Translations under genes and position numbers: made by a program | In this document: positions 5,513 through 59,429 of the stretch, in pieces | Position numbering within the stretch: the stretch's first letter is position 1 | Layout of the letters: each line of letters begins with the position of its first letter | Notes under the pieces: generated by a model | The model's input: the letters and a program-made list of their open reading frames with translations, nothing else | What the model was told of the DNA's origin: nothing | The model's database searches: none | Assembly: GCA_964016885.1 (NCBI GenBank) | Contig: OZ024746.1 | Span: forward strand, 86,800,001-86,864,000 | Length of the DNA stretch: 64,000 nucleotides | Source: Eledone cirrhosa | Lineage: Eukaryota | Reading direction: 5' to 3'

Positions 5513-7395
5513 GATATATATATATGTATATATATATATATGATATGCGGCCATGTTTGAGCTCCGACTGAACTCAATTTATTGATCTCACAATGTATAG
5601 GTCAGCCCGAGTGTATATGGAAAACATTCGCACCGCGGAGCCATACAATGGAATTGAAAACATACGTCGTGTAAACGAACCCTGCCTACACCATTAGTCA
5701 ACAGATAAATGGTTACAGACAAATACTGTGTTATCATCTGGTTATATACAGTACATTGAATGAAAGTCGCAATATTTATTTGCTCTATATGCATTAGGTT
5801 CAAAACGTTCAAAATAAGCAAAAATAAAGGAAAGTCAGAGAAATAACAATTGCATAATAACAACGTCAATCATTTCTAAAAATAGAAATAGAAGCTTTCG
5901 GCATATTTTTTTTACTAAAGAAATTTTAGCCTGATAGTGGAGTTTAGAACCCTCTAAGTAAATAAAAAAGATGAGTATTGACGTACATGGGAGTCGAAGC
6001 CACACTTTGGTTATCCAGACCACAGAAAAAAAAAAAAAATACTGCGAAATCTCCTGTTTCTATTTTCAAACTTGTTTGTTGCTTTAACAAAATTTACTTG
6101 TATATAAAAACTTACTAATATATTTTATATACGAAGTACTTCGATTAAAATCTTTATGTTGCGTTATCCAGCTGCGCATTATTATTATGAATTTAAATCA
6201 GGAATGCTATTAACGTATTTTCTTCTAAAAATTTGTTAATTTTATAAACAAATATAGTGTCCATAGAGCGGATGTTGAACTGAGTTTCTTCATATTATAC
6301 AGGATTGTTCTTTTTGTATCACAAATAACGTGCCAGAACATGAGTTACGTGCAGTGAAATAATGTCTATTTAGGATTTCAGCCAAGAATCAACGAAATAT
6401 CCATAACGCATCTGAACCTTTAACCTTTGGGTCACTAGCATTCAAATCCATTATTCATACGATTATTTCACCTCTTTTTCATTATGTATCAAAAAATAAT
6501 TAAATCCACAACGAACCAAGCAACAAACGATAAAGAAACCTAGAAAATACAAACTACTATTGAAGATGACTAGATGGTACTCAAAACAACAAGAAGGAAA
6601 TAAAGATATTGATCGCGGTATTTTTCAATTATCAAAGAATACACACAACGCTATTATAATACTCGACAACAACGTTTATGAAATAGCTAATTAACTGAAG
6701 ACATATATTTCTGTCTTTTAACATTTCTAAAATATTCTGAAAATTTATGTTTCACAAACATAATAATGTGTATCGACATTTTTGAAGCAGGATTAATTTT
6801 TGTTATATTATTTTCTAACAAAGTAAGACAATTTCCTTCCTTGAGCTAACATCTTCTAATACACTGATAGAACATTCATCCTTTTTTTTTTTATTTTACT
6901 TCACCATTCACGTAACTTTAAAAGTCATCCTTGTTTAATCTTTTCAGTTCACATCATTATTGTGTCTCATTTAATTTCCTGACCAGATTCTAAAGAAAAA
7001 TGAACCGAAGTTATTATCAACATTATAAATAATAGATTTCGCTGTTTTCTCATCATTTTTCTTCCTATCATTTTCTTTACACCTTTGTTTCCAATTTTTT
7101 AAAATACTCATTTCTGAATTTCTATGACGCTGGTTATTTCTTCCGCTTCATACCCTCCATTATAATAATGCATTGAAATATTTGCTTTCTGACATATATT
7201 TGTTATTTTTTTACTTAAATAAACACAGTTTTAGACTCCTAAAAATGTTGCCTTCTATAACACAAAAAAATACAATATAGAGAAATATCATATAACAAAA
7301 GGAAATATCATTTACTAAAATAAAGCTGATTATTTATTCTGCTGCTGCTACTGCTACTACTGCTACTTCTATTGCCACTGCTGGTACAACTGCTC

Positions 7396-7585: not shown

Positions 7586-8929
7586 TAATGTGACGCATGA
7601 GCAAAGTTGTTCGAACGTCAAATAGAATACTTTAGGGTTTCTGCGGCTTGAATCCAGTCGAAATTAACTTTGCCTTTCAATTTTTCTTGATCGATAGATT
7701 ATTGAACCAGTACTGAACTCAATTCTTCTTCTATCTATCTTTTCCCACATTCTTTCTTAATCTCTCACTCTCTCTTCTCTATCGCTCTCTCACTCTCTCT
7801 CTCTCTCCCTCTCTCCCTCTCTCTCTTTCTATCTCTCCTTTTCTGGAAGAAAACAACTGTGTTCAGACCTTGAAAATAGGTTTGCTTTGTGAAGTGTTAT
7901 GCATATGAGTGGTTTTGTATCTCTTTAGAAATCATCAGACCACAAATATGGAGGAAAGCAAAATACGTTATTGGTAGTTGTTCGAGTACTTCAGCGGGAT
8001 TTTAAGAGTGAGGGCAACACACTGGGTAGCTTTGAATTTACTAATATATGCCGCAAAATAGTCTGTCGAATATTCTATATTTAATAATGTAATCTCTAAC
8101 ATAAAAACAAGGCCAGTACTAGTGTGAAGGGGAAATCGACTAAATCTACTCTATTTCTTGGATAGTACTTCATTTGTCAACCATGAAAGAGTGGAAGGCA
8201 AAAGTAGAATGTGAGAATGTGATATAGAGATGGTTATATTTATTAAAGTATGGAATAGAGTAGTATAGAAAGTGAATTGTGTTATGTAAGTATGGAAAGA
8301 GAAAGAAAAGAAAATATATAATGGAAGTATATAAATCAAATTAAGGTGGTTGAAAATCAGTCGAATTTATATAATATTTCCTCCACCATATAATGCAATA
8401 CTTCTGCTATAGTATACAAACACAAACATGTCGTTGATCTCAAATTTCAAATTTACATCTTAGAGTTATTTCGCTTAGTTATATTACGTTTGTTTCCTAA
8501 GCACGCGTTCTTAAGACACTTTACTTTTAACGGTATCTTATAAACTCGTATAAGCACATGAAGACAGGCCACTAATTTGATGCCTCTTCTATGCTGGAGG
8601 TGTGGTAAAATTTGTGACTTGAAACCTTAGGTAGTGGCTGTGTTCCATGTAAAAACATAAATAAATAATTTATTTCAGCTCCTGTCCCGATTGCGCACTA
8701 TTTATCTTTTATATTTTTCACACCAACGGATATTGCTACGCACACACGCACACAGACATATGCACACACTCACACTCTTACACAATATACACACATACAC
8801 ACACACATGCACACACATATACACACATATATATATACATATATATGTATATATACACACCATCTCTCACACACACATATATATCTATAATTTTAGGAAT
8901 AACCAAAGAGTGCTTAGAAATACATTGTT

Positions 8930-24919: not shown

Positions 24920-25110
24920 ATGTTGTCCAAGGGAAAGGCAATGACCGATATAGCCTGGCCCCAGTGACGTCCCAACTCATTTCTACAGATGAGTAAACTG
25001 GAAATACGTGAAATACGTAAAATAAAGTGTCATGCTTAAGGACATAACGCATCACCCGGTACGAGAATCGAACTCACAACCTCTCAATTGCGATCCCAAC
25101 GCTTTAGCCA
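24920..25110 (-). mobile_element. SINE family B (CORE-like)
   Basis: Minus strand head ggcgcatggcttaatggctaaagcg, B-box-like gagttcgattc, core gtccttaagcatgacactttatttt. Similar to 53275-53590. Confidence 0.75.
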
Positions 25111-25353
25111 TTAAGCCATGCGCCTTCACTATATCCATCCATACATACATGTATACATGCATGCATGCATACATACACACATACATATATATCATGGCAA
25201 ACATAGCAATAATTTCTTTCAAAACGGTACTGAGAGAAAGTAGTGTTATTACTTAGCTTAATGTTATTACTAAGCTCTATTTTTATATATTTGGTATCTG
25301 GCTGCATAATTTGTAATTTATTTCCTTATGTATGGTGTATAGTTACTTTGTAG

Positions 25354-25513: not shown

Positions 25514-26059
25514 TCCTATCTACTAGTATGTGTGTATTACATTCTAGAGATATATTTTATATTTGCATTCTATATTTAATCCTTCCAAATACTAATTTAA
25601 AATAGTGAAGCTCTATGAGATAGACAGTTTGTTAGCTTCCATCTTATTTTCTATATCCTGTAACTATGCAAGATAATCCCAATATTGGTTTATATTTAGT
25701 TATTCTCCTACAATTGGAAAGATTCCGTCTTTGAACATTATATTTGAACATTTTATTGGCATCTTGTTTCGCTACTTTTATGCTTTGAGTTAAATATTCA
25801 GGAACTTGATAGTCGTACAGTATATAGAATATTTGTGTTCAGTACAAACCAAGATAGTTCGCAGCCAAATTCCCCTTAAATTATATTTATTCGTCTTAGA
25901 AAAAGAATGTAAACTAGTTTTAAGGGAAATATGTCTGGAAAAATGGGTTGTTGCAGGTTGTGAATAAACAGCCATGTGGAAAAGAATAAAAACAAGAACA
26001 AAAACAGTTATTATCTATAATGCAGTAGCAGTAGAGTGTCAGACCCACTTTGTGGCATA

Positions 26060-26360
26060 GAATTATAGCCTTTTACGTTCTGAGTTCAAATCCCGCCGAG
26101 GTTAGATTTGCCTTTCATCCTTACGGGGTTGATAAAATAAAGTACCAGTAATGCACTAGTGTGGATTTAATCGACTTTCTCCTTCACTAAAATTGTTGGC
26201 CTTGTGCCTAAATCAGAAACTATTATCTTTAAGAAACAAGTTATGATCTTAGTTCAAATCCTGCCGAGGTTAACTTTGCCTTTCATCCTTACGGGGTCGA
26301 TAAAATAAAGTACCAGTGGGATAATTGCTGGCCTTATGTCAAACGTAGAGACAATTATCT
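26060..26360 (+). mobile_element. Two tandem, 5'-truncated SINE family A copies
   Basis: Core and tail consensus occur twice (26060-26225 and 26250-26360). Confidence 0.85.
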
Positions 26361-27006
26361 TTAATAAAGAAAGAACAAATTCTATCAGAAAACCAAAGTT
26401 TTACAAGACTAAATTAATACTTCCTGATCATTGTAATGTTTTTTTCGTTGATATTTCTCATTATATAATCACTATATTATACTAGAGAGTAATGTTGTAG
26501 TTTAGAAAAGAATGTACTTGATATACACCGTTGTGTATCTGCTAGAAATAGAAAAATATAATCTACATTCCTGCTTGCAGTACAATCTAACTTTGCCTTA
26601 TATCATACAAAACTGTTTCAATAAAGAGGAGATGAGGATGCATGGAATATCTATGAGCATAATCTTCATGAATAGGGGTAATCTTGAGGAACCACAAAAC
26701 ACCATCAACAACCCTTGCTTTAGTTAAAGGGCAACGCTGCCGTAAGTCTCTTTATCGCTCTCTTGCACTCTATCTCTCACTCTATCTATCTACTATCTAT
26801 TTTGATAGAGTAAGACACGCTTCACATCAGCTCCGCTATTCCATCGGGATTTACCCTTACTATAGTAAGTACCGGATAAATTTTTCAGTGCAACACATTT
26901 GGAACACTAACCCCTGTTATTTAGGGAAACATTTTTGCATTTACCCCCTTTTTAGGATGTAAAATAAATATCTATTTTTTTGCCGAAAAATTTCTTTCTT
27001 GGCAGC

Positions 27007-28836
27007 ATGGCGGAAAAGATGGCAGACATGTCTGCCATTAGCTCTACCACGCCCCCCAAGTCTGAAGAACAAAAAATAATTACAACAAAATTAGACAACG
27101 AAACAAACAAGGAAAATGGAAAAACAAATGTTAAGGAAAATGAGCAAACGGAAAACAAACAAACAGAAAATAATACAAATAACAACAGGGCAACTTTCGC
27201 CCAGAAAACAAAACAATCCATAACATACACACCAATTGACTTAACTGCCGCCAGAGAAAAACTGGCCGAAGCGAAAAAACAAATAGTCTTGGGGGAGAAC
27301 GGAATGTTTTCCATTAACTCCCCCCCAGAATTCAAGAAAGCCAGAACAGAGAGCACAGTTCTCTTCAGAACTATATTGAACCAAACAAGAAAGCCAGCAC
27401 AGCCCAGCCAAATGGAAATAGAGTTGGTCCTAAAAGACTATATGAAGAATATTCTCTTCATACGAAAGGACCGACTCTATGGCAGCATTTCGGTCTTAAC
27501 AAAAGACAAGGAAACGGCGGAGAAGCTTTCCCTAAGCCCACTCTCATCGACAACATACAGCTTCTATCCCTCCTACATGGGTAGAAGAACACAGAGAGTA
27601 AAAGTAAAAACAATGCTGCCCACAATGGACTTCTGGTGGGCTATTGCTGGCTTCATAGACATGGGCGAAGACACAATGCTGTCAATGGGGAAGGCAACTG
27701 GAGATGCGTTCCTGGGAATGGGCCTCGACATACTAGTCCAAATGAGGCCCGAAAGAATAGCACAAATCCCGGATCGCATCTGGCTGGATGACCTTACCCC
27801 AATAGATATAATTGTAGAGGGGAGAAGACCAGCATGCTATTTATGCACGGAAAGGGGACACGTTAAGGCTAACTGCCCGAAACGTATCCCCCAAAAGGGA
27901 CTATTGCCCACACCCACCACAAACAGTACACCAACACCACCCACCTCCAAAAATACACTAATACCACACACAGCAAACAAAATACAGACACCGCCAACCA
28001 CAAACACAACACAAACATCACCACCACCAGCACCAAACACAAGCACGACACAAAAATCACCACCACCAACCACAACACAAACATCACCACCACCATCACC
28101 AACCACAAGCACGACACAAACATTACCACCACCACCACCACAAAACCCATTCTAAACAAATAAAAAAAAACAGTAACAAATCTACCCCTCCCGCAAAAAA
28201 AAACAACCACACAACACGTCCCTCCCACCTAGCGCTGAAGAGTTTCCCCCAACTTCTGAAGAAGAAGGAGGAGAAGCCTTCAGACAAGTTAAAAGAAAAA
28301 AAAGAAAACACACACCCAGCACACCACAAATAACCCACACACAAACACCAACTCCAATCAAAAACACCCCACCCTCAACAAACAAAAATAAATCTGCACC
28401 TCCCCTCTCCGAAACATTGACAGCATCACAAAAAAAGACGTTGCAATACACATATATATAAAGAAAACAAAAAACTGGTTAAATTAATAAACAATAGCCC
28501 TTTGGTGCAGACCGAAGGGCCAAACTTTATCTCAACAGAGAACTTCACCCATTTAAAAATGATAAAGGTCCCTCTGGACCTTTATCGTTCCTTAAAAGAA
28601 CAATTTAGACGGGACGTGAGCCCCCCTGTTTAAAACCGTTAAATCGCGTCCTCTTGAAAGATTTCCCCATAACCGCCCCTCTCCCTGACACAACTCCAAA
28701 TACCCCAACCCCACCACACACGGGTACCCCCACACCACCACAAAACATCCCTCCACCCAACACACCTGATGCCATGGAAATTACACAACCCGGAGAGGTA
28801 GGTGCTTTTCTTTCTTCACTTTCAACACCAAAATAG
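27007..28836 (+). pseudogene. Tx1 ORF1 (nucleic-acid-binding protein with CCHC zinc knuckle and Pro/Thr-rich tail), open to 28155 and then broken
   Basis: ATG at 27007. Knuckle CYLCTERGHVKANC. 22-aa tandem duplication TTQTSPPP.... The Pro/Thr-rich reading continues in shifted frames to TAG at 28834-28836. Confidence 0.8.
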
Positions 28837-28841
28837 ATCAA

Positions 28842-31584
28842 TTGAGAGTTGGCTGTTTGAACACGCGTGGCCTGGGCTCAGCTTGTAAGCAAGCAAAGCT
28901 TCTAAATGACCTCAGGTCACAAAGTATAGATGTGATGGTTGTTTGCGAGAGTCGGATCAGCAGCGTGAGACAGCTGGCGCCCGCCTTCGATGACTTTGAG
29001 ATGCACGCATCTCTCTGTCAACCCGGAGGCGGGGGGGGGGGGGAGGGGAGTTGCCGTACTGCTGGATAAACGTCTGGCTCTCGACGTACAGATTGTTCAC
29101 TCGGACCCGGGGGGTCGATTACTGGTGCTGGACGTCGGAGGCGGTGAAGGCGGGGCTTTCAGACTGGTCGGTCTTTATGCCCCCTTCGGGGCGGAAAGAG
29201 CCGACTTCTTCCAGCGTCTGGAGACTTTTCTAGCTGGGCCCGCGTGACAGAAGCCAAGAGTGGGATTAAATTCACCATTCGGTCTTTGCGAGACCAGGAT
29301 GGACGGGTGATCCTTGAACCTGAGCGGATGTGCGAGGCCTTTCAAAGGCACTTTGTTCGACTGTTCGGAGGGGGCGGGGGGCCGGACGGGGATGTGGACT
29401 TCGGTCCATACCTCGACGGTCTACCGCGTCTTTCGAGGGGCGAAGCGGAGTGCTGCGAAAGGCCAATCACGGCCACTGAAATCGGGGAAGCGCTCAGCCA
29501 ATGCAGCAGACGCAAATCTCCGGGTCTCGATGGTCTACCATACGAACTTTATTTAGCTATGCCGGTCTTGTTCTCCGAACTCCTCGGCTGTCTATTGCAA
29601 CTGGCAACAGAACGGGAGAATTCCCTGTTCTGTGACCAAGGGCGTGGTCACGCTAGTGAGGAAGGACGAGAGCAAAGGGGACGACTTAAGTAACTTTAGG
29701 CCCATAACTCTGCTAAATGCAGAGTTACAGATTTTGGCCAAGGTGTTGGCGAAGAGGTTGGCGCTTGTGGTGGGTGGTTTGGTGGGAGACGCGCAGACAT
29801 GCGCTATCCCGTCCAGGTCCATTCACGACAACCTCCACCTCATGCGATACATCGTAGAGAGGGTTGGCAACGAACCCGGCTTTGGTGGGGCCCTGATCAA
29901 CTTGGATCAATCTAAGGCGTTCGATAGGGTCGACCATGGTTACCTGGATGCGGTGCTAGCGGCGGTGGGCTTCGGACCCGTTTTCAGGGGCTGGATTTCT
30001 GCCATGCACAGTGGCAACATCTACTCTAGGATTAAAGTAAACGGCTACCTCTCGGAGCCGTTTCAAATCACCCGGTCCATCAGACAGGGGTGCCCCCTCT
30101 CCTCCCTTCTGTACGTATTGACTCTCGAGCCACTGCTGCGGAAGTTGGAGTTGCTGTGGGGCATAACCCTGGAACCGGGATTGCACAAAGCGGTCTCGGC
30201 CTATGCTGACGACGTAACAGTAATGGTGGCGGACGCCTCGGAAATCGGGGCGATCGCCACCCTACTGGAGGAATACGAAAGGCTGACGGGGGCTAGGCTG
30301 AACCAGGACAAGTCAGTCGGTTTGCAACTCGGAACGTGGAGGGGCAAACCGATGCCGTTAAACGGTGTCGTCGGGCGGTGGATGGAGGGCCCGGTGAAGC
30401 TGCTCGGGGTCTGGTTCGGACCGGACCTCCAGGTGGAGAAGAATTGGGGCGAGGTGACGAGCAGGGTGTTTGCGCTGACCCAGAAGTGGGCCAAGTGCAA
30501 ACTATCACTCAAAGGTCGGGCGGAGGTGACGAACGCTTACATAGCGTCCGTCATCTACTACCGCCTGACCGTCGTGCCTTGCCCCAAGGAAAAGCTCACC
30601 ATCATGGAACGCATGCTCTTCCAGTTCCTCTGGAAGAAGCGGCCTCCCATGGTGAGGAGATACATCTGCTGCCAGCACCCTTCGAAAGGAGGGCTGGGTA
30701 TGCCGTGGCTGTTGATGCGTAGGCACGCATTGAGGCTACGGCATCTACAGGTATTCCTCAACGGTCAGCCGGTGTGGGCCCCGTTTGTGAGGCGAGCCTT
30801 CCCACAGCTCGTCTCGCTCACCGAACTGCAATCCTGGGTGAAGCAAAGACCGAGAAAACTGGGCAACTGGCACACCGAGTGTGCCCAGGCGCTCACGGCT
30901 ATCTGGCAAGCGGACCCGACTATCAGTGGAGAATCCACCTCGACATTCTATAGAGGGTTGGTGGCTAGCAAGGGCGACGACACCCTTGGAGAGTCGCTAG
31001 GCATGGAGGAGGACGAACTGGCCAGCCTGTTCGATAGAACTTTCGGCCCGGGACCCATGGACAACTTCCAGAGGTCCCTAGCCTGGCAGTGTTACCGGAG
31101 GGCTCTGCCCGTTCGAGAAAAGCTCTACAGACACGGGCGCCCGGGCAGGGATCCCGCGAAAAAGATCTGTCCCAGATGCGTGCGCGACGAGGAAACGGTT
31201 GCGCATGCACTGGTACACTGCCCGGGCGTTGCCGATCTGTGGGGTTACGTCGAACGACTGCTGTCGCGTGTGGCGCCGATTCGATTAACCGCCGAGTCTG
31301 TGGTGAACATCAAGCCGCCTCCTCCCTTCAGAAATGAAGCAGAGGCGGTCTTTCTGTGCGTAATAGCCATGATGAAAGAGGTTGTGTGGTGGACGCGCCT
31401 GAAAGGTCTGAGGTCGGGTGACTTTCTCTCCGGCCATCACCTGGTTTACTTCTTCCGATACCACTTCGGAAGAAGGATCAGGATGGAGAGAGAAGTGCTT
31501 GGCCCCAGACAGTTTTATGAAAGGTGGGTGAAAGAAGCGAGAATGGCCCGTGTAAATGGGTCTTCTCTCTACATTGTTCTGTAG
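28842..31584 (+). pseudogene. Tx1 ORF2: APE endonuclease (partly deleted), reverse transcriptase, C-terminal zinc-binding domain
   Basis: APE motifs LNTRGL, VVCESR, RGVAVL, DPGGRL and LVGLYAP, then a jump at ~29244 that loses the GDxN/SDH part. RT motifs KSPGLDG, NFRPITLLN, LDQSKAFDRV, IRQGCPLS, YADD and KGGLG. C-terminal CPRC..ETVAHALVHC. Frameshifts near 29035, 29244 and 29585. 650 aa open at 29632-31584. Confidence 0.92.
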
Positions 31585-31840
31585 GTGAAGAAGTGAAGAG
31601 GGAAGGGGGAGCGCCTCCTCTCTGGGCTTCCCCCGCGAAAAGAGTTGCACACTTTTCGGGGGTATGTGCAATCCCCAACACGCCCCCTCCCTTTTGAGGA
31701 CTTTTTATTGTTATATTATTATTGTTATTCCTTTTTTCTTTACTCGATTTATGTAAACTTCCCCACTGTGTATTTGTCCCCTTCTTTTGAGCCCTCGTGG
31801 CAAATAAATAGAAATCTATCTATCTACTATCTATCTAATT

Positions 31841-31934
31841 GCCTCGGAGCGCAGGAAGCAGCGCGCCAGTCTCATAATCACATGTGAAAATCAGAGAAAT
31901 CTGAAGGTTGTGAGTTCGATCCTCACCTGAGGCA
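31841..31934 (+). tRNA. Elongator tRNA-Met(CAT) with a 22-nt intron at 37/38, probably pseudogenised
   Basis: GCCTCGG-A-GCGC-AGGAAGCA-GCGC-G-CCAGT-CTCATA-[atcacatgtgaaaatcagagaa]-A-TCTGA-AGGTT-GTGAG-TTCGATC-CTCAC-CTGAGGC-A. The exons closely match eukaryotic elongator tRNA-Met. A T-run follows at ~31938-31944. Defects: U8 missing, D-loop GG changed to AG, C27-A43 mismatch. Confidence 0.85.
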
Positions 31935-32579
31935 CAGTTCTTTTATAAAAAATATATCTCTCTATCTCTCAATCGATCTACATATCTACCTAACTATCGT
32001 TTGATCTATTAGTATGTCCGACTCGCTGTTCTATTTTTCTATGTGACTATATATTTAATTGCACGATATCACCTAACCAGAAAATATATTGAAACAATAA
32101 GCAATGCAATGCAGTAACAATTCTTCACTTCTCTTACACTTCTGCCAAAAATTATCATACGTGTGTGCGTAAATTTTGTATATCGAATAATATACGTTAT
32201 GTTTACGAATAAATATTAGAAAGCCTGTAGCCATGAATTTTAAAAGGTGGTGGCAGAACGCCACCTAGAGAGTTCCCACATAGGCAAGAGGATATTACCG
32301 ACAGGTGTTTCTAACTTATATCGTTATTAAGGTAATGCACTCGAGGTCGAAGCGATATGTTAGACTACGTCCTCGTGAGGGAAAAGGACTGACACGATGT
32401 TTGTGTCACAAATGCCATATGTGTTGCAGAATTTAGGACAGATGACAAAAAGCTAATCATAAAGTTCAGCATCAAATTACAGAGGTCTAAATACAAATTG
32501 GAAATCTTACTGCGAAACAAATTAAAATACTGCTATTGTAATAGTTTGACTCAACTCAGTGAATCGCGATAAGAATGAT

Positions 32580-35689: not shown

Positions 35690-36302
35690 TGATCGGTGGG
35701 CACTGCCGGTTCGAAATAAACGCTACGGCCAGGGAAATGTGGTCAGACGGACGTTTCTGAGATACGCGTGGAGAGAGAGATGAAACCATTTTTCACGTAT
35801 TCGTGCATCACCAACTTGTGTAATTTTATTAAACAGATAATTATCGCGTGTAGGACATATCTGGTTATCGACCGAGTACATCGGGAAGCTGGGTACGCCA
35901 CATTATTTTGACCAGGAATGGCAGGAAGTTTTCCTTTGCCTGGTGGCCATAGGGAAAGAAGTTGTGAGGTTGAAAGGACTGCAGACATATACTTTCTCTT
36001 CGGCCAATCCCTCATCACTTAGAAAGGAAGGGGATGGTTAAGAAGAAGTGCTGCCTCCTAGTACATTTGCTAAAAGGTGGGTTAATGTTCCGAGAATGGT
36101 CCGTGTGACTCTGAGCATGCACCGGTAGGCTAGCTGAATTGAACTAGAGAGGGGTCCACTTCTCAGGTGCACTTGGAGCGTCGGGGGCTTCAGATATGTT
36201 ACCCCTATTGAGGAATTTTTAGTGTAATAATTTTAATATCTATTTTATTTTGTTAACTCAATTTTCTACTATATGTCGGCCCTTGTGGCCAATAAAGAAA
36301 TC
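35690..36302 (+). mobile_element. Old Tx1 3' fragment ending in (ATT)n
   Basis: Degenerate ALPVRNK.YG.G..V.R...ET.FH and KRWVNVPRMVRV. The 3' end ggcccttgtggccaataaagaaatc is followed by (att)n. Confidence 0.7.
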
Positions 36303-36314
36303 ATTATTATTATT

Positions 36315-37748
36315 GCTAGGTGTCTAGTTCGGTCCGGACCTCCAGACGGACAAAAACTGGGACGAGGTGACGAGCAGGGTGGCTTCTCTCACCCAGAAAT
36401 GGGCAGAGAGGAAGCTATCCCTGAAAGGTCGAGCGGAGGTGGCGAATGCGTATATCGCGTCCGTCATCTACGACCGCCTGACCGTCTTACCTTGTCCTAA
36501 GCCTCGCCTGACTGCGCTGGAGCATTTGTTCTCTCGCTCTTTTTGGAAGGGACGCGCTCCGATGGTCAGGCGGTCCATTTGCTGTCTACACCAGCTACGT
36601 GGAGGGCTGGGCATGCCGTTGCTGATGATGCGTAGACACGCGCTTAGGTTACGACATCTCCACCTCTTCCTCGACAGTGATCAGGTGTGGTCACCGTTTG
36701 CTAGACGCGTTTTTCCCCAGCTCGTCTCCTTAACGGAGCTGCAGTCCCGGATCAAGCGAAAACCGAGAGGGAGCGCTTGGAGACTGGAATGTCTTCTGGG
36801 CGCTCACAGCCCTCGACCAGTCACGCAATGTGATCGGTGGAAACTCCACGTTGGCGTTCTATAGAAGATTAGTGGAGGGGGAGAGCGACGACGTACTTGG
36901 GGGAAACTGTAGGCGTCGATGAAAATCAACTAGCCAATCTCTTCGGAAGAACTTTCGGGCCGGGGCCTATGGACAATTTCCAGAAATCCCTGGCCTGGCA
37001 GTGCTACCGAGGAGCTTTGTCAATTCGAGATAAACTCTACAGGCATAGAAGTGCCGTCAGCCGGGCATGTCCGAGATGCGCGCAGAGCGACGAAACCGTC
37101 CTGCACGCACTCGTCCTGTGTCCGAGCATTGCTGACTTGTGGGTTTATGTCGAACACCTGCTGTCGCGTGTAGAACGGATCCCGCTATGAGCTGAATCCA
37201 TCGTGAGGATTGCCCCTCCCTCTTCCTTTAGCCGGGAAGGGCATGCAATTTTTATCTGTCTGGTGGCAATGGCGAAAGAGATAGTATGGTGAACGCGTGT
37301 GAAAGGGCTGAAGACGAGCACTTACCTCTTCGGTGATACCCTGATTAACTTTTTCAAATTTCATTTGAAAAGAAATATCAGGGTAGAGAGGTAAGTACTC
37401 CTTTCCCAACATTTTGTTGAAAGATGGGTGAGAGAGGCAAGAATGGTCCGAGTGAATGGGCGTACTCTGAGTATGTGCCTGTAAATTGAAGGTGGAAAAC
37501 TGGGAGAAGGCACTTGCCCTGGTGGTCAGGGTTACCGTGGCCTTTTTTTAATGGGCTTTCTCCACGATGGCCCCCGAAAGCCTACCCCTATAGGGGAATT
37601 TTTCATTGTTCTTTTTTTGTTACATCCTCTGTTTTTGTATTTTTTACACGCAGAAATGACCATTTGTACCGTCCTGTATTGTCCTGCATTGTCCTGTACT
37701 CTCCTTAATGTCTACTTTGTGTCAACCCTTGTGGTTAATAAGGAAAGC
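36315..37748 (+). mobile_element. 5'-truncated Tx1 copy related to 26801-31814, between (ATT)n tracts
   Basis: TSRVASLTQKWAERKLSLKGRAEVANAYIASVIY, RTFGPGPMDNFQKSLAWQCYR and CPRC..ETVLHALVLC. Several stops and frameshifts. Ends cccttgtggttaataaggaaagc followed by (att)n. Confidence 0.9.
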
Positions 37749-37758
37749 ATTATTATTA

Positions 37759-37793
<35 letters not shown>

Positions 37794-55871: not shown

Positions 55872-56692
55872 ATAATTGTTTCTACTTTAGGCACAAGGCC
55901 AGCAATTACCAGTGCATTACTGGTACTTTATTTTATCGACCCCGGCGGGATTTGAACTCAGATGGTAAAGGGACGTAACTATGCTGGAAAGCATGGCGTC
56001 CGACCCTCTACCGATACTGCCAATCCACCGCCCATAATATTTTAAATAATGAGGATAACTACATTATCGTCAATTGCTGTCCTTGTGCCAAAAGTAGAAA
56101 CAATTATTATTATATAAGGGCGTTGGATTGGCAGTATCGGTAGAGGGTCGGACGCCATGCTTTGACGCATAGAGTTACGGCCCTTGCCATTATGAGTTCA
56201 AATCCCGCCGAGGTTAACTTTGCCTTTCATCCTTACGGGGTCGATAAAATAAAGTACCAGTAATGCACTGGCATAATTGCTGGCCTTGTGCCAAACGTAG
56301 AAACAATTATTATTAGAGGGTCGGACGTCATGCTTTGACGCATAGAGTTACGGCCCTTGCCATTCTGAGTTCAAATCCCGCCAAGGTCAACTTTGCCTTT
56401 CATCCTTACGGGGTCAATAAAATAAAGTACCAGTAATGTACTGGGTAATTGCTGGCCTTGTGCCAAACGTAGAACCAATGATTAGTATATAAGGGCGGTG
56501 GATTGGCAGTATCGGTAGAGAGTCGGACACCATGCTTTGCAGCATAGAGTTACGGTCCTTTATGGGCTGAGTTCAAATCCCGTCGAGGTTAACTTTGCCT
56601 TTCATCCTTACGGGGTCAATAAAATAAAGTACCAGTAATATACTGGGGTAATAGCTGGCCTTGTGCCAAAAGTAGAAACAATTATTATTATC
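55872..56692. mobile_element. Cluster of SINE family A copies: one minus (55872-56033), a tail stub, and three head-to-tail plus copies (~56117, ~56316, ~56492)
   Basis: Near-identical consensus units separated by (att)n. The minus copy is flanked by cataatattttaaataat. Confidence 0.9.
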
Positions 56693-59429
56693 AAAAATAT
56701 TGATAATGATCTCTTTTATTTGACACTGAGCCTCAAGGCGTTGGGTGCTTGACAGGAGAAAGGCGAAATACAAATCAAGCAAGAACATAATTATTGTTGT
56801 TGTTGTTGTTGTTGTTAATAATAATAAATTAAATGGTGATGATGTTAATGATGACGAAATCATGATGAAAGTCATCACTGATAGTAGACAGTTTTCTCAA
56901 TCATTAGGAAAAATATGTGAAAAGGATAGAAAATATTAAAAAATAAAGCAGAAAACATAATGAATGAAAGAAAAGAATAAAAGGAGAGGCAGAGAAAATG
57001 AAGTACTAGGAACACTTCTGAAGGAGTTTTGTAAAATGAAAAGAAAAAACATATTAAGAATTAGATAAGGTTGTCGTGTAATTATCTTGTTGCAGTAGAG
57101 AAAAAGAACTAGATGGGGAAAAATATGAATAAAAATAAAAAAAAAAGAAGAAAAGATAGAATTAGACTTTCCATATGGTACTTTGGCATTTTTATCTGTC
57201 GAGGTGAAATGTAGAAATAATGATTAAAAGATATGAGAAGTTTAGTTTAAAAAAAAAAAAGAAAATTGGGAAAAAATGTCCTAAAATGGAGAAAGAATCT
57301 AAAATATGATGCATTAAATATGGTTTCCAAATTACACGTTACGACTGGATTGTTAGTCATTTTGAAATTGGAACATGTTATTTCTATTAGTAAAAACATA
57401 TGCTTGTATGATTTATGGCCAGAGCGAATTCTGGTCAAGAAAATCATTGATTTAAAGCATCCTCAGATTTCGTTCCTGTGGAGTGTATTTTGGTTACATT
57501 TGGAAACTTGACTAAAAAATACCAGAATGCTGCCGCTGCTTACAGCCATCGCTTAAAACACAATAAATGCAGCAACTTTTCGCAGGCAGCTATGATGTGT
57601 ATGCCACTGAAATCTAACTATAATAACTAAGTGTATAGCGTTGTACATGCGACAGTTTAACATGATGACATGATCACTAGAGTGGCTGTTACTCTGGTTA
57701 AACAGAACTGTGATACAATATATTCTGGATGTAATAAGCCTGTCTTACTTTAAGGACTTCATTATCCACTAAATCGTTCTCAATATAAAAAGTCAGAAAT
57801 AGTTTTATGGAGACTGCTGGTTGAACTTTCCCTCATTCACAGATAAAATGCTTATCTATTCTGCTTGTTCTATCAACTACAGTATTTGGGAAACTTAATT
57901 GTTTCAGCTATAGTAAACGCTGTAAGCTAACAACCAAACCTATACCTTATAGGTTTGTTCAGTTGCGACTCTCACTTTTGTTGAGATTTATGAAGATCTA
58001 GAAAGAAAAAAAGTTTAAAAGTCATAACATTTTAATCTACTAATATCATTTTAGTGTAGGGGTTATTATATAGGGATCTTCTAGGATAACGAATTTGCAC
58101 AGAAGTAAATATCGAAGACCATACACAATCCATAAACAATAATTTTGTGAATGATTTCAGAAACGTCTGGGCACTAAACCATGTTGTTCAATATGTACGT
58201 ATTTTACGTCGCGTTTCAGGACTTTTGCATCAACTCCAGCATCATATGTTTCTATTGCGGTATTGAATAAGGTAAATATATATATTTAGACAGATTAATT
58301 TGCTATCGAGAAACCATGTTGCTGATAATAGATTTTGCTTTCTTCCGAATTAAATGATATCTGTTCTTTTCTTTCGTGTGTGTGCATACGCAAGTAATGT
58401 TTGTATTTGGGAAATATATGGCAGGCGAAGAGTCAAAGAGGCAGAAAGTCAGAGGGAGAGAGAGGATGGGGAATGAGAGAAAGTGAATGAAATATGGAAG
58501 GAAATACACAAAACGGAAACTAATTTCATTTTGATCTATCATGTGGATGATTTGTATGGTATTTGCAGAATATTTGTATATTGAAACAATGTGTCATTAT
58601 GAGTTTAATGTCCTGGACATTTAAGTGTTCCTATGTAATTGCAAACGTAATATTTGTGTATGTTTTGTGTTGTGTGATTTGTAATTTGTACATGTATTGG
58701 ATTATATTACAGAAAATATCTTATTGATCTCATATATTTGTTTTAGAAAATACAATCTTTCCGCTTTTGACTACATGTAATATATCTGATGCTACATTTG
58801 AACGGCCTATTACATCTTTACATAATATCTAATGGAGGTTTATACTTTTCCGTACATGAATTATGGAATGTTTGTATATCTCTATGCATAAGTGAAATCA
58901 TATGATAGAAAGTTTCTCCTTTTGACAAAAAAAAAAAAAAAATAATAAAAATAAAAATAAATGAAAGTGAATAAAAATAATTAAAAATAAAATAAAGAGC
59001 AAATAACTCGTTGGAAAAATTGAATAGCTAGAACTAGTTGGATTGGAAGTGTTCTGTTTACGTTAATTGCATTTACAGACCTCACTATTAAAGCATTAAT
59101 ACATTGATGTTACTAATGCTATGCGCATGGGATAACGACCAAAGCCCTAAGATCGAAATATATAAGCATTGTAGGAAATCTAGGAAAAGATTTCCTCGGG
59201 AGACTGTACGTATTTCAGTTAATCTGGTTTGTGAAATGGGTTCGGTTTCTTATTCAATGACTTTCCGTGTTCGATATTTCCCACTGTAGTCTTAAGAAAA
59301 GGGGAATGGACTAGGTTGATTTTCCAGCCTTTCAATACACCAAAACGAAAGTATTATGTCCATCTCACAATCCATTTGGTGGTAAGACCCGGCATCCCAA
59401 CCCACCTCACAGAGAAATGTAAAATAAAC

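What the first reader, a model, noticed from the sequence alone, without database searches (positions are those of the whole stretch)
26781..31945. Full-length Tx1 LINE inserted immediately upstream of a tRNA-Met gene: candidate tRNA-targeting retrotransposon
Seen: the 5-kb element has an exact 20-bp TSD (tctatctatctactatctat). The downstream TSD copy ends at 31834, only 6 bp before tRNA position 1 (31841), and both features are on the same strand. Known: several Tx1-clade families are sequence-specific (Dewa in tRNA array spacers, Keno in U2, Mutsu in 5S, Kibi/Koshi in microsatellites). Inference: this family targets either the 5' flank of tRNA-Met genes or the (CTAT)n repeat that happens to precede this one.
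Basis: partly seen in the sequence, partly recalled or inferred. Interest (0 to 1): 0.75.

Follow-up and report, generated by a model that had tools for sequence, protein, structure and literature searches.

The report
TATC-seeking LINE beside dead tRNA copy
This is a damaged copy of an abundant jumping gene whose copies sit in TATC repeats rather than beside tRNA genes, so its place next to a decayed, intron-bearing methionine tRNA copy is likely because that copy already lay in an old TATC repeat.

Summary
The 20-bp duplication and the tRNA 6 bp downstream are real, but tRNA targeting is refuted. The element belongs to a young family with 642 exact 3' ends. None of 67 other 3' junctions has a tRNA gene; 36 of 39 5' junctions end in TATC. 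Genome-wide, only this copy has a tRNA gene at this distance. None of 97 tRNA-Met paralogues has a TATC leader or an adjacent family copy. The copy is not intact: about 690 bp, including the endonuclease's catalytic half, are deleted. The tRNA has lost U8, G18 and C48 and is far more diverged (6/73) than the LINE (25/2573), so it likely decayed first. It lies in a degenerate TATC repeat whose paralogue has no tRNA. Side result: all 90 elongator tRNA-Met copies examined carry a 21-22-nt intron, outside the set described for animals. The scan already noted both the TATC family and this intron on other DNA. New here: the orphan may be a retrocopy of unspliced pre-tRNA (about 30%).

The parts
26768..26788 (+). 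Left copy of a 21-nt imperfect direct repeat (19/21) that brackets the tRNA copy; possible older duplication from insertion of the tRNA copy
   Evidence: D9; weak: 5 of 198 other TATC-rich 60-mers match as well or better, 0 of 198 hold its exact 12-mer
26781..26800 (+). 5' target-site duplication in a degenerate (TATC)n repeat
   Evidence: D17, exact 20 nt
26802..31814 (+). Tx1-like LINE, both ends present, 5,013 bp, internally deleted; 97-99% identical to siblings
   Evidence: 25 differences in 2573 aligned bases of the 3' part
27007..28155 (+). ORF1, 382 aa, weak CCHC zinc knuckle at aa 276-292; siblings' frames from the same point run 405-555 aa, so probably shortened
   Evidence: (E 0.006, under the curated cut-off)
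28770..31584 (+). Broken ORF2: N-terminal half of an AP-type endonuclease, deletion, then reverse transcriptase and zinc-binding region; three frame segments
   Evidence: a natural sibling frame of 1171 aa (L121) has Exo_endo_phos, RVT_1, zf-RVT
29231..29233 (+). Junction of a ~690-bp internal deletion (3-bp overlap) that removes about aa 157-387 of the sibling frame, the second half of the endonuclease domain among them
31585..31814 (+). 3' UTR with AATAAA at 31803-31808; family 3' end
31815..31834 (+). 3' target-site duplication (its first bases cannot be told from the family's TATC-type tail)
31841..31934 (+). Degenerate elongator tRNA-Met(CAT) copy; U8 missing, G18A, C48T and three further exon changes
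31877..31898 (+). 22-nt intron at the canonical 37/38 position, closest to the 21-nt introns of the C8 gene cluster
31935..31944 (+). 3' trailer ending in TTTT, 9 of 10 bases like the trailer of paralogue C8:3878329
31945..32010 (+). A-rich run, then degenerate (TATC)n/(TC)n repeat holding the right copy (31960-31980) of the 21-nt repeat
31952..32141 (+). Flank with one paralogue 200 kb away (C6:86632691, 78-79%), where a clean (TATC)n follows an older LINE 3' end and no tRNA-Met is present

Best explanation
The element is an internally deleted copy of a young, high-copy Tx1-like LINE family whose junctions lie in (TATC)n repeats in one orientation, and it likely landed 6 bp before the tRNA only because an already decayed tRNA-Met copy lay inside an old TATC repeat. 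Shown: junction composition, absence of tRNA beside siblings, absence of LINEs beside intact tRNA-Met genes, damage to this copy and to the tRNA. Inferred from known non-LTR biology: the AP-type endonuclease nicks the GATA strand, the RNA's TATC-like 3' end pairs with the freed primer, reverse transcription copies the RNA in place, and a second nick about 20 nt away makes the duplication. Each insertion leaves TATC on both sides, which would explain same-orientation stacking. This copy could not have made a working endonuclease after its deletion.
For: 36 of 39 5' junctions end in TATC, 38 of 39 have two or more TATC in the last 20 nt, background 0.3%; the 5' flank is target, not tail. 66 of 67 3' flanks show TATC in the first 12 nt; 23 of 67 are followed within 150 nt by a related LINE, all 23 on the same strand; 16 of 39 are preceded by a LINE-like 3' end. 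0 of 67 have a tRNA gene. Of 642 exact 3' ends, 8 have a B-box-like word 60-120 nt on: this locus, 4 copies of repeats also found in the window (SINE-like heads), 2 LINE bodies, 1 unassigned; only this one gives a tRNA call. 0 of 97 tRNA-Met paralogues have two TATC in the 40 nt upstream; 94 of 97 have a loosely defined TATA-like word there; the nearest related LINE fragment (70-73% identical) is about 5 kb away. tRNA exon divergence 6/73 against LINE divergence 25/2573, Fisher p 1.5e-4. The one paralogue of the flank has a clean TATC run and no tRNA-Met.
Against: 16 of 39 upstream TATC runs are tails of earlier LINEs, so part of the signal is self-made. The sampled copies are the best matches to this copy (29 of 2453 candidates at the 3' end, 39 of 658 at the 5' end), not a random draw. 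The genome-wide test covers only exact 24-nt ends and a B-box word 60-120 nt downstream on the same strand; upstream or opposite-strand tRNAs were checked only at 30 5' junctions, 500 nt each (0 found). Cleavage specificity was not tested. No empty allele was seen.
Confidence: 0.9

Rival explanations
1. The family targets the 5' flank of tRNA-Met genes, by sequence as Dewa does for a tRNA-Leu spacer or by distance as TRE5-A does.
For: One copy ends 26 nt before a tRNA-Met-like sequence on the same strand. tRNA-linked targeting exists in non-LTR elements (PMC3706591, passages).
Against: 0 of 67 other junctions, 1 of 642 genome-wide, 0 of 97 paralogues. This tRNA has lost two A-box positions and appears older than the insertion, so a polymerase III complex to tether to was probably absent.
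Confidence: 0.02
2. There is no endonuclease preference for TATC: the runs come from the element's own tail and from pairing of that tail with chance TATC-like sites during priming.
For: The 3' end runs straight into TATC in 66 of 67 copies; tail and duplication cannot be separated; 16 of 39 upstream runs are older LINE tails.
Against: Full-length 5' junctions end at the same phase (35 of 39 end in TCTATC), in unrelated flanks as well, which shows the target held TATC before insertion. This does not say whether the nick or the pairing step selects it.
Confidence: 0.08
3. On the origin of the tRNA copy: it is a decayed remnant of a DNA-level duplication or of an old tRNA gene, around which the microsatellite grew, not an RNA-derived copy.
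For: Other decayed copies exist in gene-like settings, one 20 nt behind a tRNA-Cys-like sequence with the usual leader (C3:199426166). The bracketing 21-nt repeat is matched by 5 of 198 control windows. No spliced copy was found, although retrocopies of mature tRNA might be expected if RNA copying were common.
Against: Likeness to paralogues spans only a few leader bases to the T-run; the usual upstream TATA-like flank is missing; the paralogous flank has no tRNA.
Confidence: 0.55

Closest known systems
Kibi (TC)n and Koshi (TTC)n of teleosts; crocodilian Tx1 families in (TTCC)n/(TTTC)n (PMC4494074, passages and section 15)
   Same: Two-ORF LINE with AP-type endonuclease and RT, inserted in a pyrimidine-rich simple repeat; far above that paper's 20% rule for target specificity.
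   Different: Target unit is TATC; host is an invertebrate (probably an octopod, from earlier scan notes and a recalled SINE likeness, not tested); no tree was built, so kinship with Kibi/Koshi specifically is open.
Dewa (tRNA-Leu spacer, zebrafish) and TRE5-A (near tRNA genes, Dictyostelium) (PMC3706591, passages)
   Same: One copy lies next to a tRNA sequence.
   Different: No family-wide link to tRNA genes or their arrays; the tRNA-Met arrays here hold no family copy.
L1-Tx1 repeats of Octopus vulgaris (PMC13282606, passages)
   Same: Recently active L1-Tx1 families are listed there (13 families, 421 insertions).
   Different: The word 'target' does not occur in its main text; whether this family is one of them was not tested, and its supplements were not opened.
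Intron-bearing elongator tRNA-Met of plants and algae (PMC13578239, section 9)
   Same: Canonical 37/38 intron in elongator tRNA-Met.
   Different: That review speaks of a feature possibly lost in animals, and bioRxiv 10.1101/2025.06.17.660180 (passages) says metazoan introns are essentially confined to Tyr-GUA, Ile-UAU, Leu-CAA and Arg-UCU; here an animal genome has it in every copy examined.

Membership tests
Tx1 clade non-LTR retrotransposon | ORF2 with N-terminal AP-type endonuclease and RT | tested here: met
   Sibling L121: Exo_endo_phos 46.9 bits, RVT_1 84.9 bits; window copy keeps RT, endonuclease half deleted
Tx1 clade non-LTR retrotransposon | ORF1 with CCHC zinc knuckle (feature recalled) | tested here: inconclusive
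   zf-CCHC 17 bits, cut-off 20.8
Tx1 clade non-LTR retrotransposon | RT groups with Tx1 rather than L1 in a phylogeny | tested here: inconclusive
   No tree. Sibling ORF2 scores 306 bits against a protein named YTX2 (recalled as the Tx1 ORF2 label) and 340 against a Tetraodon pol-like protein, versus 160 for human L1 ORF2p
Microsatellite-targeting Tx1 families (Kibi/Koshi type) | More than 20% of flanks in one repeat type, at a fixed phase | tested here: met
   36 of 39 5' junctions end in TATC; 66 of 67 3' flanks start with TATC; rule from PMC4494074
Microsatellite-targeting Tx1 families (Kibi/Koshi type) | Endonuclease cleaves the repeat specifically | not testable with these tools
   Needs a biochemical assay
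tRNA-targeting elements (Dewa, TRE5-A type) | Copies enriched at a fixed site or distance from tRNA genes | tested here: not met
   0 of 67, 1 of 642, 0 of 97
Functional elongator tRNA-Met gene (window copy) | Invariant U8, G18, G15-C48 pair, intact A box | tested here: not met
   U8 deleted, G18A, C48T; ARAGORN default 0
Canonical eukaryotic tRNA intron (paralogue family) | Position 37/38 and base pair between position 32 and the third-last intron base (feature recalled) | tested here: met
   90 of 90 have 21-22 nt at 37/38; C32 with G in 84 of 90
Canonical eukaryotic tRNA intron (paralogue family) | Intron removed in RNA | not testable with these tools
   No RNA holder listed
LINE-made retrocopy of a small RNA (window tRNA copy) | Ends match the transcript, A-rich tail, target-site duplication | tested here: inconclusive
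   Leader-to-T-run likeness and A-rich run present; bracketing repeat matched by 5 of 198 controls

The most novel reading that the evidence does not exclude
The orphan tRNA is a retrocopy of an unspliced pre-tRNA-Met (short leader, intron, trailer up to the polymerase III T-run, A-rich tail) that an older TATC-targeting LINE wrote into this microsatellite, after which a younger member of the same group hit the regenerated target 6 bp away. A second orphan on C4 that begins at +4 and keeps its parent's intron and trailer would be another such event. These fossils would record that octopod-like LINEs capture nuclear pre-tRNA before splicing, and that this animal's only elongator tRNA-Met genes need splicing.
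Probability: 0.3. Interest if true: 0.5.

Novelty: new member of a known kind. Interest (0 to 1): 0.3.

Why it matters
As a tRNA-targeting retrotransposon the finding falls. What remains is a microsatellite-targeting Tx1-like family, a known kind with a target unit I did not find in the papers read, and one the scan has noted in many other windows. Sister families in other repeats would allow a test of how endonucleases switch target. The intron in all examined elongator tRNA-Met genes departs from the stated animal pattern and bears on whether this intron was kept from early eukaryotes or gained anew; the scan noted it before on other DNA. The possible pre-tRNA retrocopy is a small, testable addition.

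Tried and rejected
tRNA targeting: rejected. Empty-site tRNA-Met paralogues with the CTAT leader: none among 97; upstream flank is single-copy, downstream flank has one paralogue without tRNA-Met. Empty allele in public runs: not seen; the listing was swamped by other family copies (60 joints not shown) and 31821-31883 had no coverage, so no conclusion. Expression or splicing: no RNA holder listed. One intron pattern was too tight, missed the window's own copy and found 1 gene; replaced. Automatic TSD lengths in siblings (0-52 nt) are confounded by the repeat and were not used. Relaxed ARAGORN calls far downstream (13 genes in 9 of 30 sequences, 1.5 kb each) were, apart from this locus, hundreds of bases away or had implausible introns. 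RNA folding did not separate intact from decayed tRNA. Paper searches found no report of a tRNA-Met intron in molluscs or of unspliced pre-tRNA retrocopies in this group in listings and the passages read; PMC8343393 was irrelevant; PMC4090602 (passages, section 5) and PMC4536317 (passages) gave no isotype list covering it. Kojima and Fujiwara 2004 was not read, only seen cited. No supplements were opened; those of PMC4494074 and PMC13282606 may list related families. No tree was built for want of a stored outgroup.

Full report
Observation. An exact 20-nt direct repeat stands at 26781-26800 and 31815-31834. Six bases later a tRNA-like sequence runs from 31841 to 31934 on the same strand (Rfam tRNA, 32.6 bits), with anticodon CAT, G1:C72 and T54, which by established tRNA rules mark an elongator Met. 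Between the repeats lies a two-ORF LINE: ORF1 at 27007-28155 with a weak zinc knuckle and an RT with a zinc-binding region in 29557-31584.

The element is damaged. Of 39 siblings fetched by their 5' ends, most are about 5.7 kb; this copy is 5,013 bp. It lacks about 690 bp at 29231-29233, equal to about aa 157-387 of a natural 1171-aa sibling frame, and its ORF2 lies in three frame segments. The sibling's endonuclease domain spans aa 41-253, so its second half is gone here. The copy is young: 25 differences in 2573 bases from the majority of 29 siblings, whose median is 0.78%.

The family is large. The 3' end gave 2453 candidates and the 5' end 658, of which 40 each were scored; an exact 24-nt 3'-end word occurs 642 times. 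The sibling ORF2 scores 306 bits against a protein named YTX2 and 340 against a Tetraodon pol-like protein, against 160 for human L1 ORF2p. That fits Tx1, but no tree was built.

Target. At 39 sibling 5' junctions, 36 end in TATC, 33 in TATCTATC and 35 in TCTATC; background in the window is 0.005 per position for TATC and 0.00014 for the octamer. The 5' flank is target DNA, so the sites held TATC before insertion; 16 of the 39 are tails of earlier LINEs. At 67 distinct 3' junctions (29, 39, one shared; two of the 39 end in a more distant family), 66 begin with TATC within 12 nt and 23 are followed by a related LINE, all in the same orientation. These samples are the best matches to this copy, not a random draw.

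No tRNA link. None of the 67 has a tRNA gene in the first 200 nt (one wrap-around call discounted), and none of 30 5' flanks within 500 nt. A genome-wide pattern for the 3' end followed by a B-box-like word 60-120 nt on found 8 of 642: this locus, four repeats also present in the window (SINE-like heads), two LINE bodies and one unassigned; only this locus gives a tRNA call. From the other side, 97 near-full tRNA-Met paralogues in arrays on C2 and C8 and two single sites have no TATC leader, and the nearest related LINE fragment is about 5 kb off.

The tRNA copy. It differs from a natural C8 paralogue at 6 of 73 exon positions, among them U8, G18 and C48, and fails ARAGORN at default threshold. 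That is far more than the LINE's divergence (Fisher p 1.5e-4), so the tRNA likely decayed before the LINE came, if the paralogues' exons have stayed close to the parent. It sits in a degenerate TATC/TC repeat; the single paralogue of the downstream flank, 200 kb away at 78-79% identity, has a clean TATC run behind an older LINE end and no tRNA-Met. Its upstream side is not homologous, so it does not show the ancestral state of the tRNA position with certainty.

Origin of the copy. Likeness to paralogues runs from a few leader bases to the T-run, then an A-rich stretch follows, and a 21-nt imperfect repeat (19/21) brackets the whole. That is the anatomy of a retrocopy of unspliced pre-tRNA. A C4 orphan begins at +4 and keeps its parent's intron and trailer; two C3 orphans are 5'-shortened. 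Against: 5 of 198 control TATC-rich windows match the 21-mer as well, one decayed C3 copy lies in a gene-like setting, and no spliced copy was found. I put the retrocopy at about 0.3.

The intron. All 90 copies matched in the fetched regions, this one included, have 21-22 nt at 37/38, with C32 opposite G third from the intron end in 84. An exact spliced-junction probe has 0 matches in the genome; diverged intron-less genes could be missed. bioRxiv 10.1101/2025.06.17.660180 (passages) states that metazoan introns are essentially confined to Tyr, Ile, Leu and Arg isotypes, and PMC13578239 (section 9) treats the elongator Met intron as enriched in plants and possibly lost in animals. Splicing was not shown.

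Mechanism. Inferred from known non-LTR biology: nick on the GATA strand, priming helped by the RNA's TATC-like end, second nick about 20 nt away, TATC left on both sides, hence stacking. Whether the nick or the pairing selects the site is untested.

Comparison. It works like Kibi, Koshi and the crocodilian (TTCC)n/(TTTC)n families (PMC4494074) and passes that paper's 20% rule; it does not work like Dewa or TRE5-A (PMC3706591). The scan's earlier notes describe the TATC family in many windows of this genome and the tRNA-Met intron twice; none was found near this window or on pre-tRNA retrocopies. They are unreviewed and were not counted as support.

Verdict. Real insertion, known kind of targeting, coincidental neighbour. 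Interest 0.3.

Noticed in passing
G000 C2:102.026-102.141 Mb, C8:3.877-3.904 Mb, C5:80619028: Elongator tRNA-Met(CAT) genes in arrays, every examined copy with a 21-22-nt canonical intron; no exact spliced junction in the genome.
   Followed up: yes
G000 C4:291545894 (-), L160: Orphan copy of the C8:3880648 gene that starts at +4, keeps intron and trailer to the T-run, then (TA)n; no clear duplication. Candidate pre-tRNA retrocopy.
   Followed up: partly
G000 C3:187262745 (-), C3:170469471 (+), C3:199426166 (-); L184-L186: Three more decayed intron-bearing tRNA-Met copies; two are 5'-shortened, one lies 20 nt behind a tRNA-Cys-like sequence.
   Followed up: partly
window about 35690-37790 (+): 5'-truncated sister LINE, 69% identical to the focal element, ending in an (ATT)n run instead of TATC.
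   Followed up: partly
L069:5685-5705: The C8-type intron contains a stretch like the start of exon 2, which might hint at origin by a short duplication; C2-type introns show it less. Speculative.
   Followed up: no
L069:172-244, 6183-6255, 7733-7805, 8791-8863: tRNA-Arg(TCT) genes in the same C8 cluster are intron-less.
   Followed up: no
window 25053-25134 (-), 26022-26364, 56069-56695 and many more: Abundant tRNA-headed SINE-like repeats; the weak Rfam tRNA hit at 25061-25118 is one of them.
   Followed up: partly
L006, L013, L015, L016, L138, L155: Head-to-tail family copies separated by only a few TATC units.
   Followed up: partly
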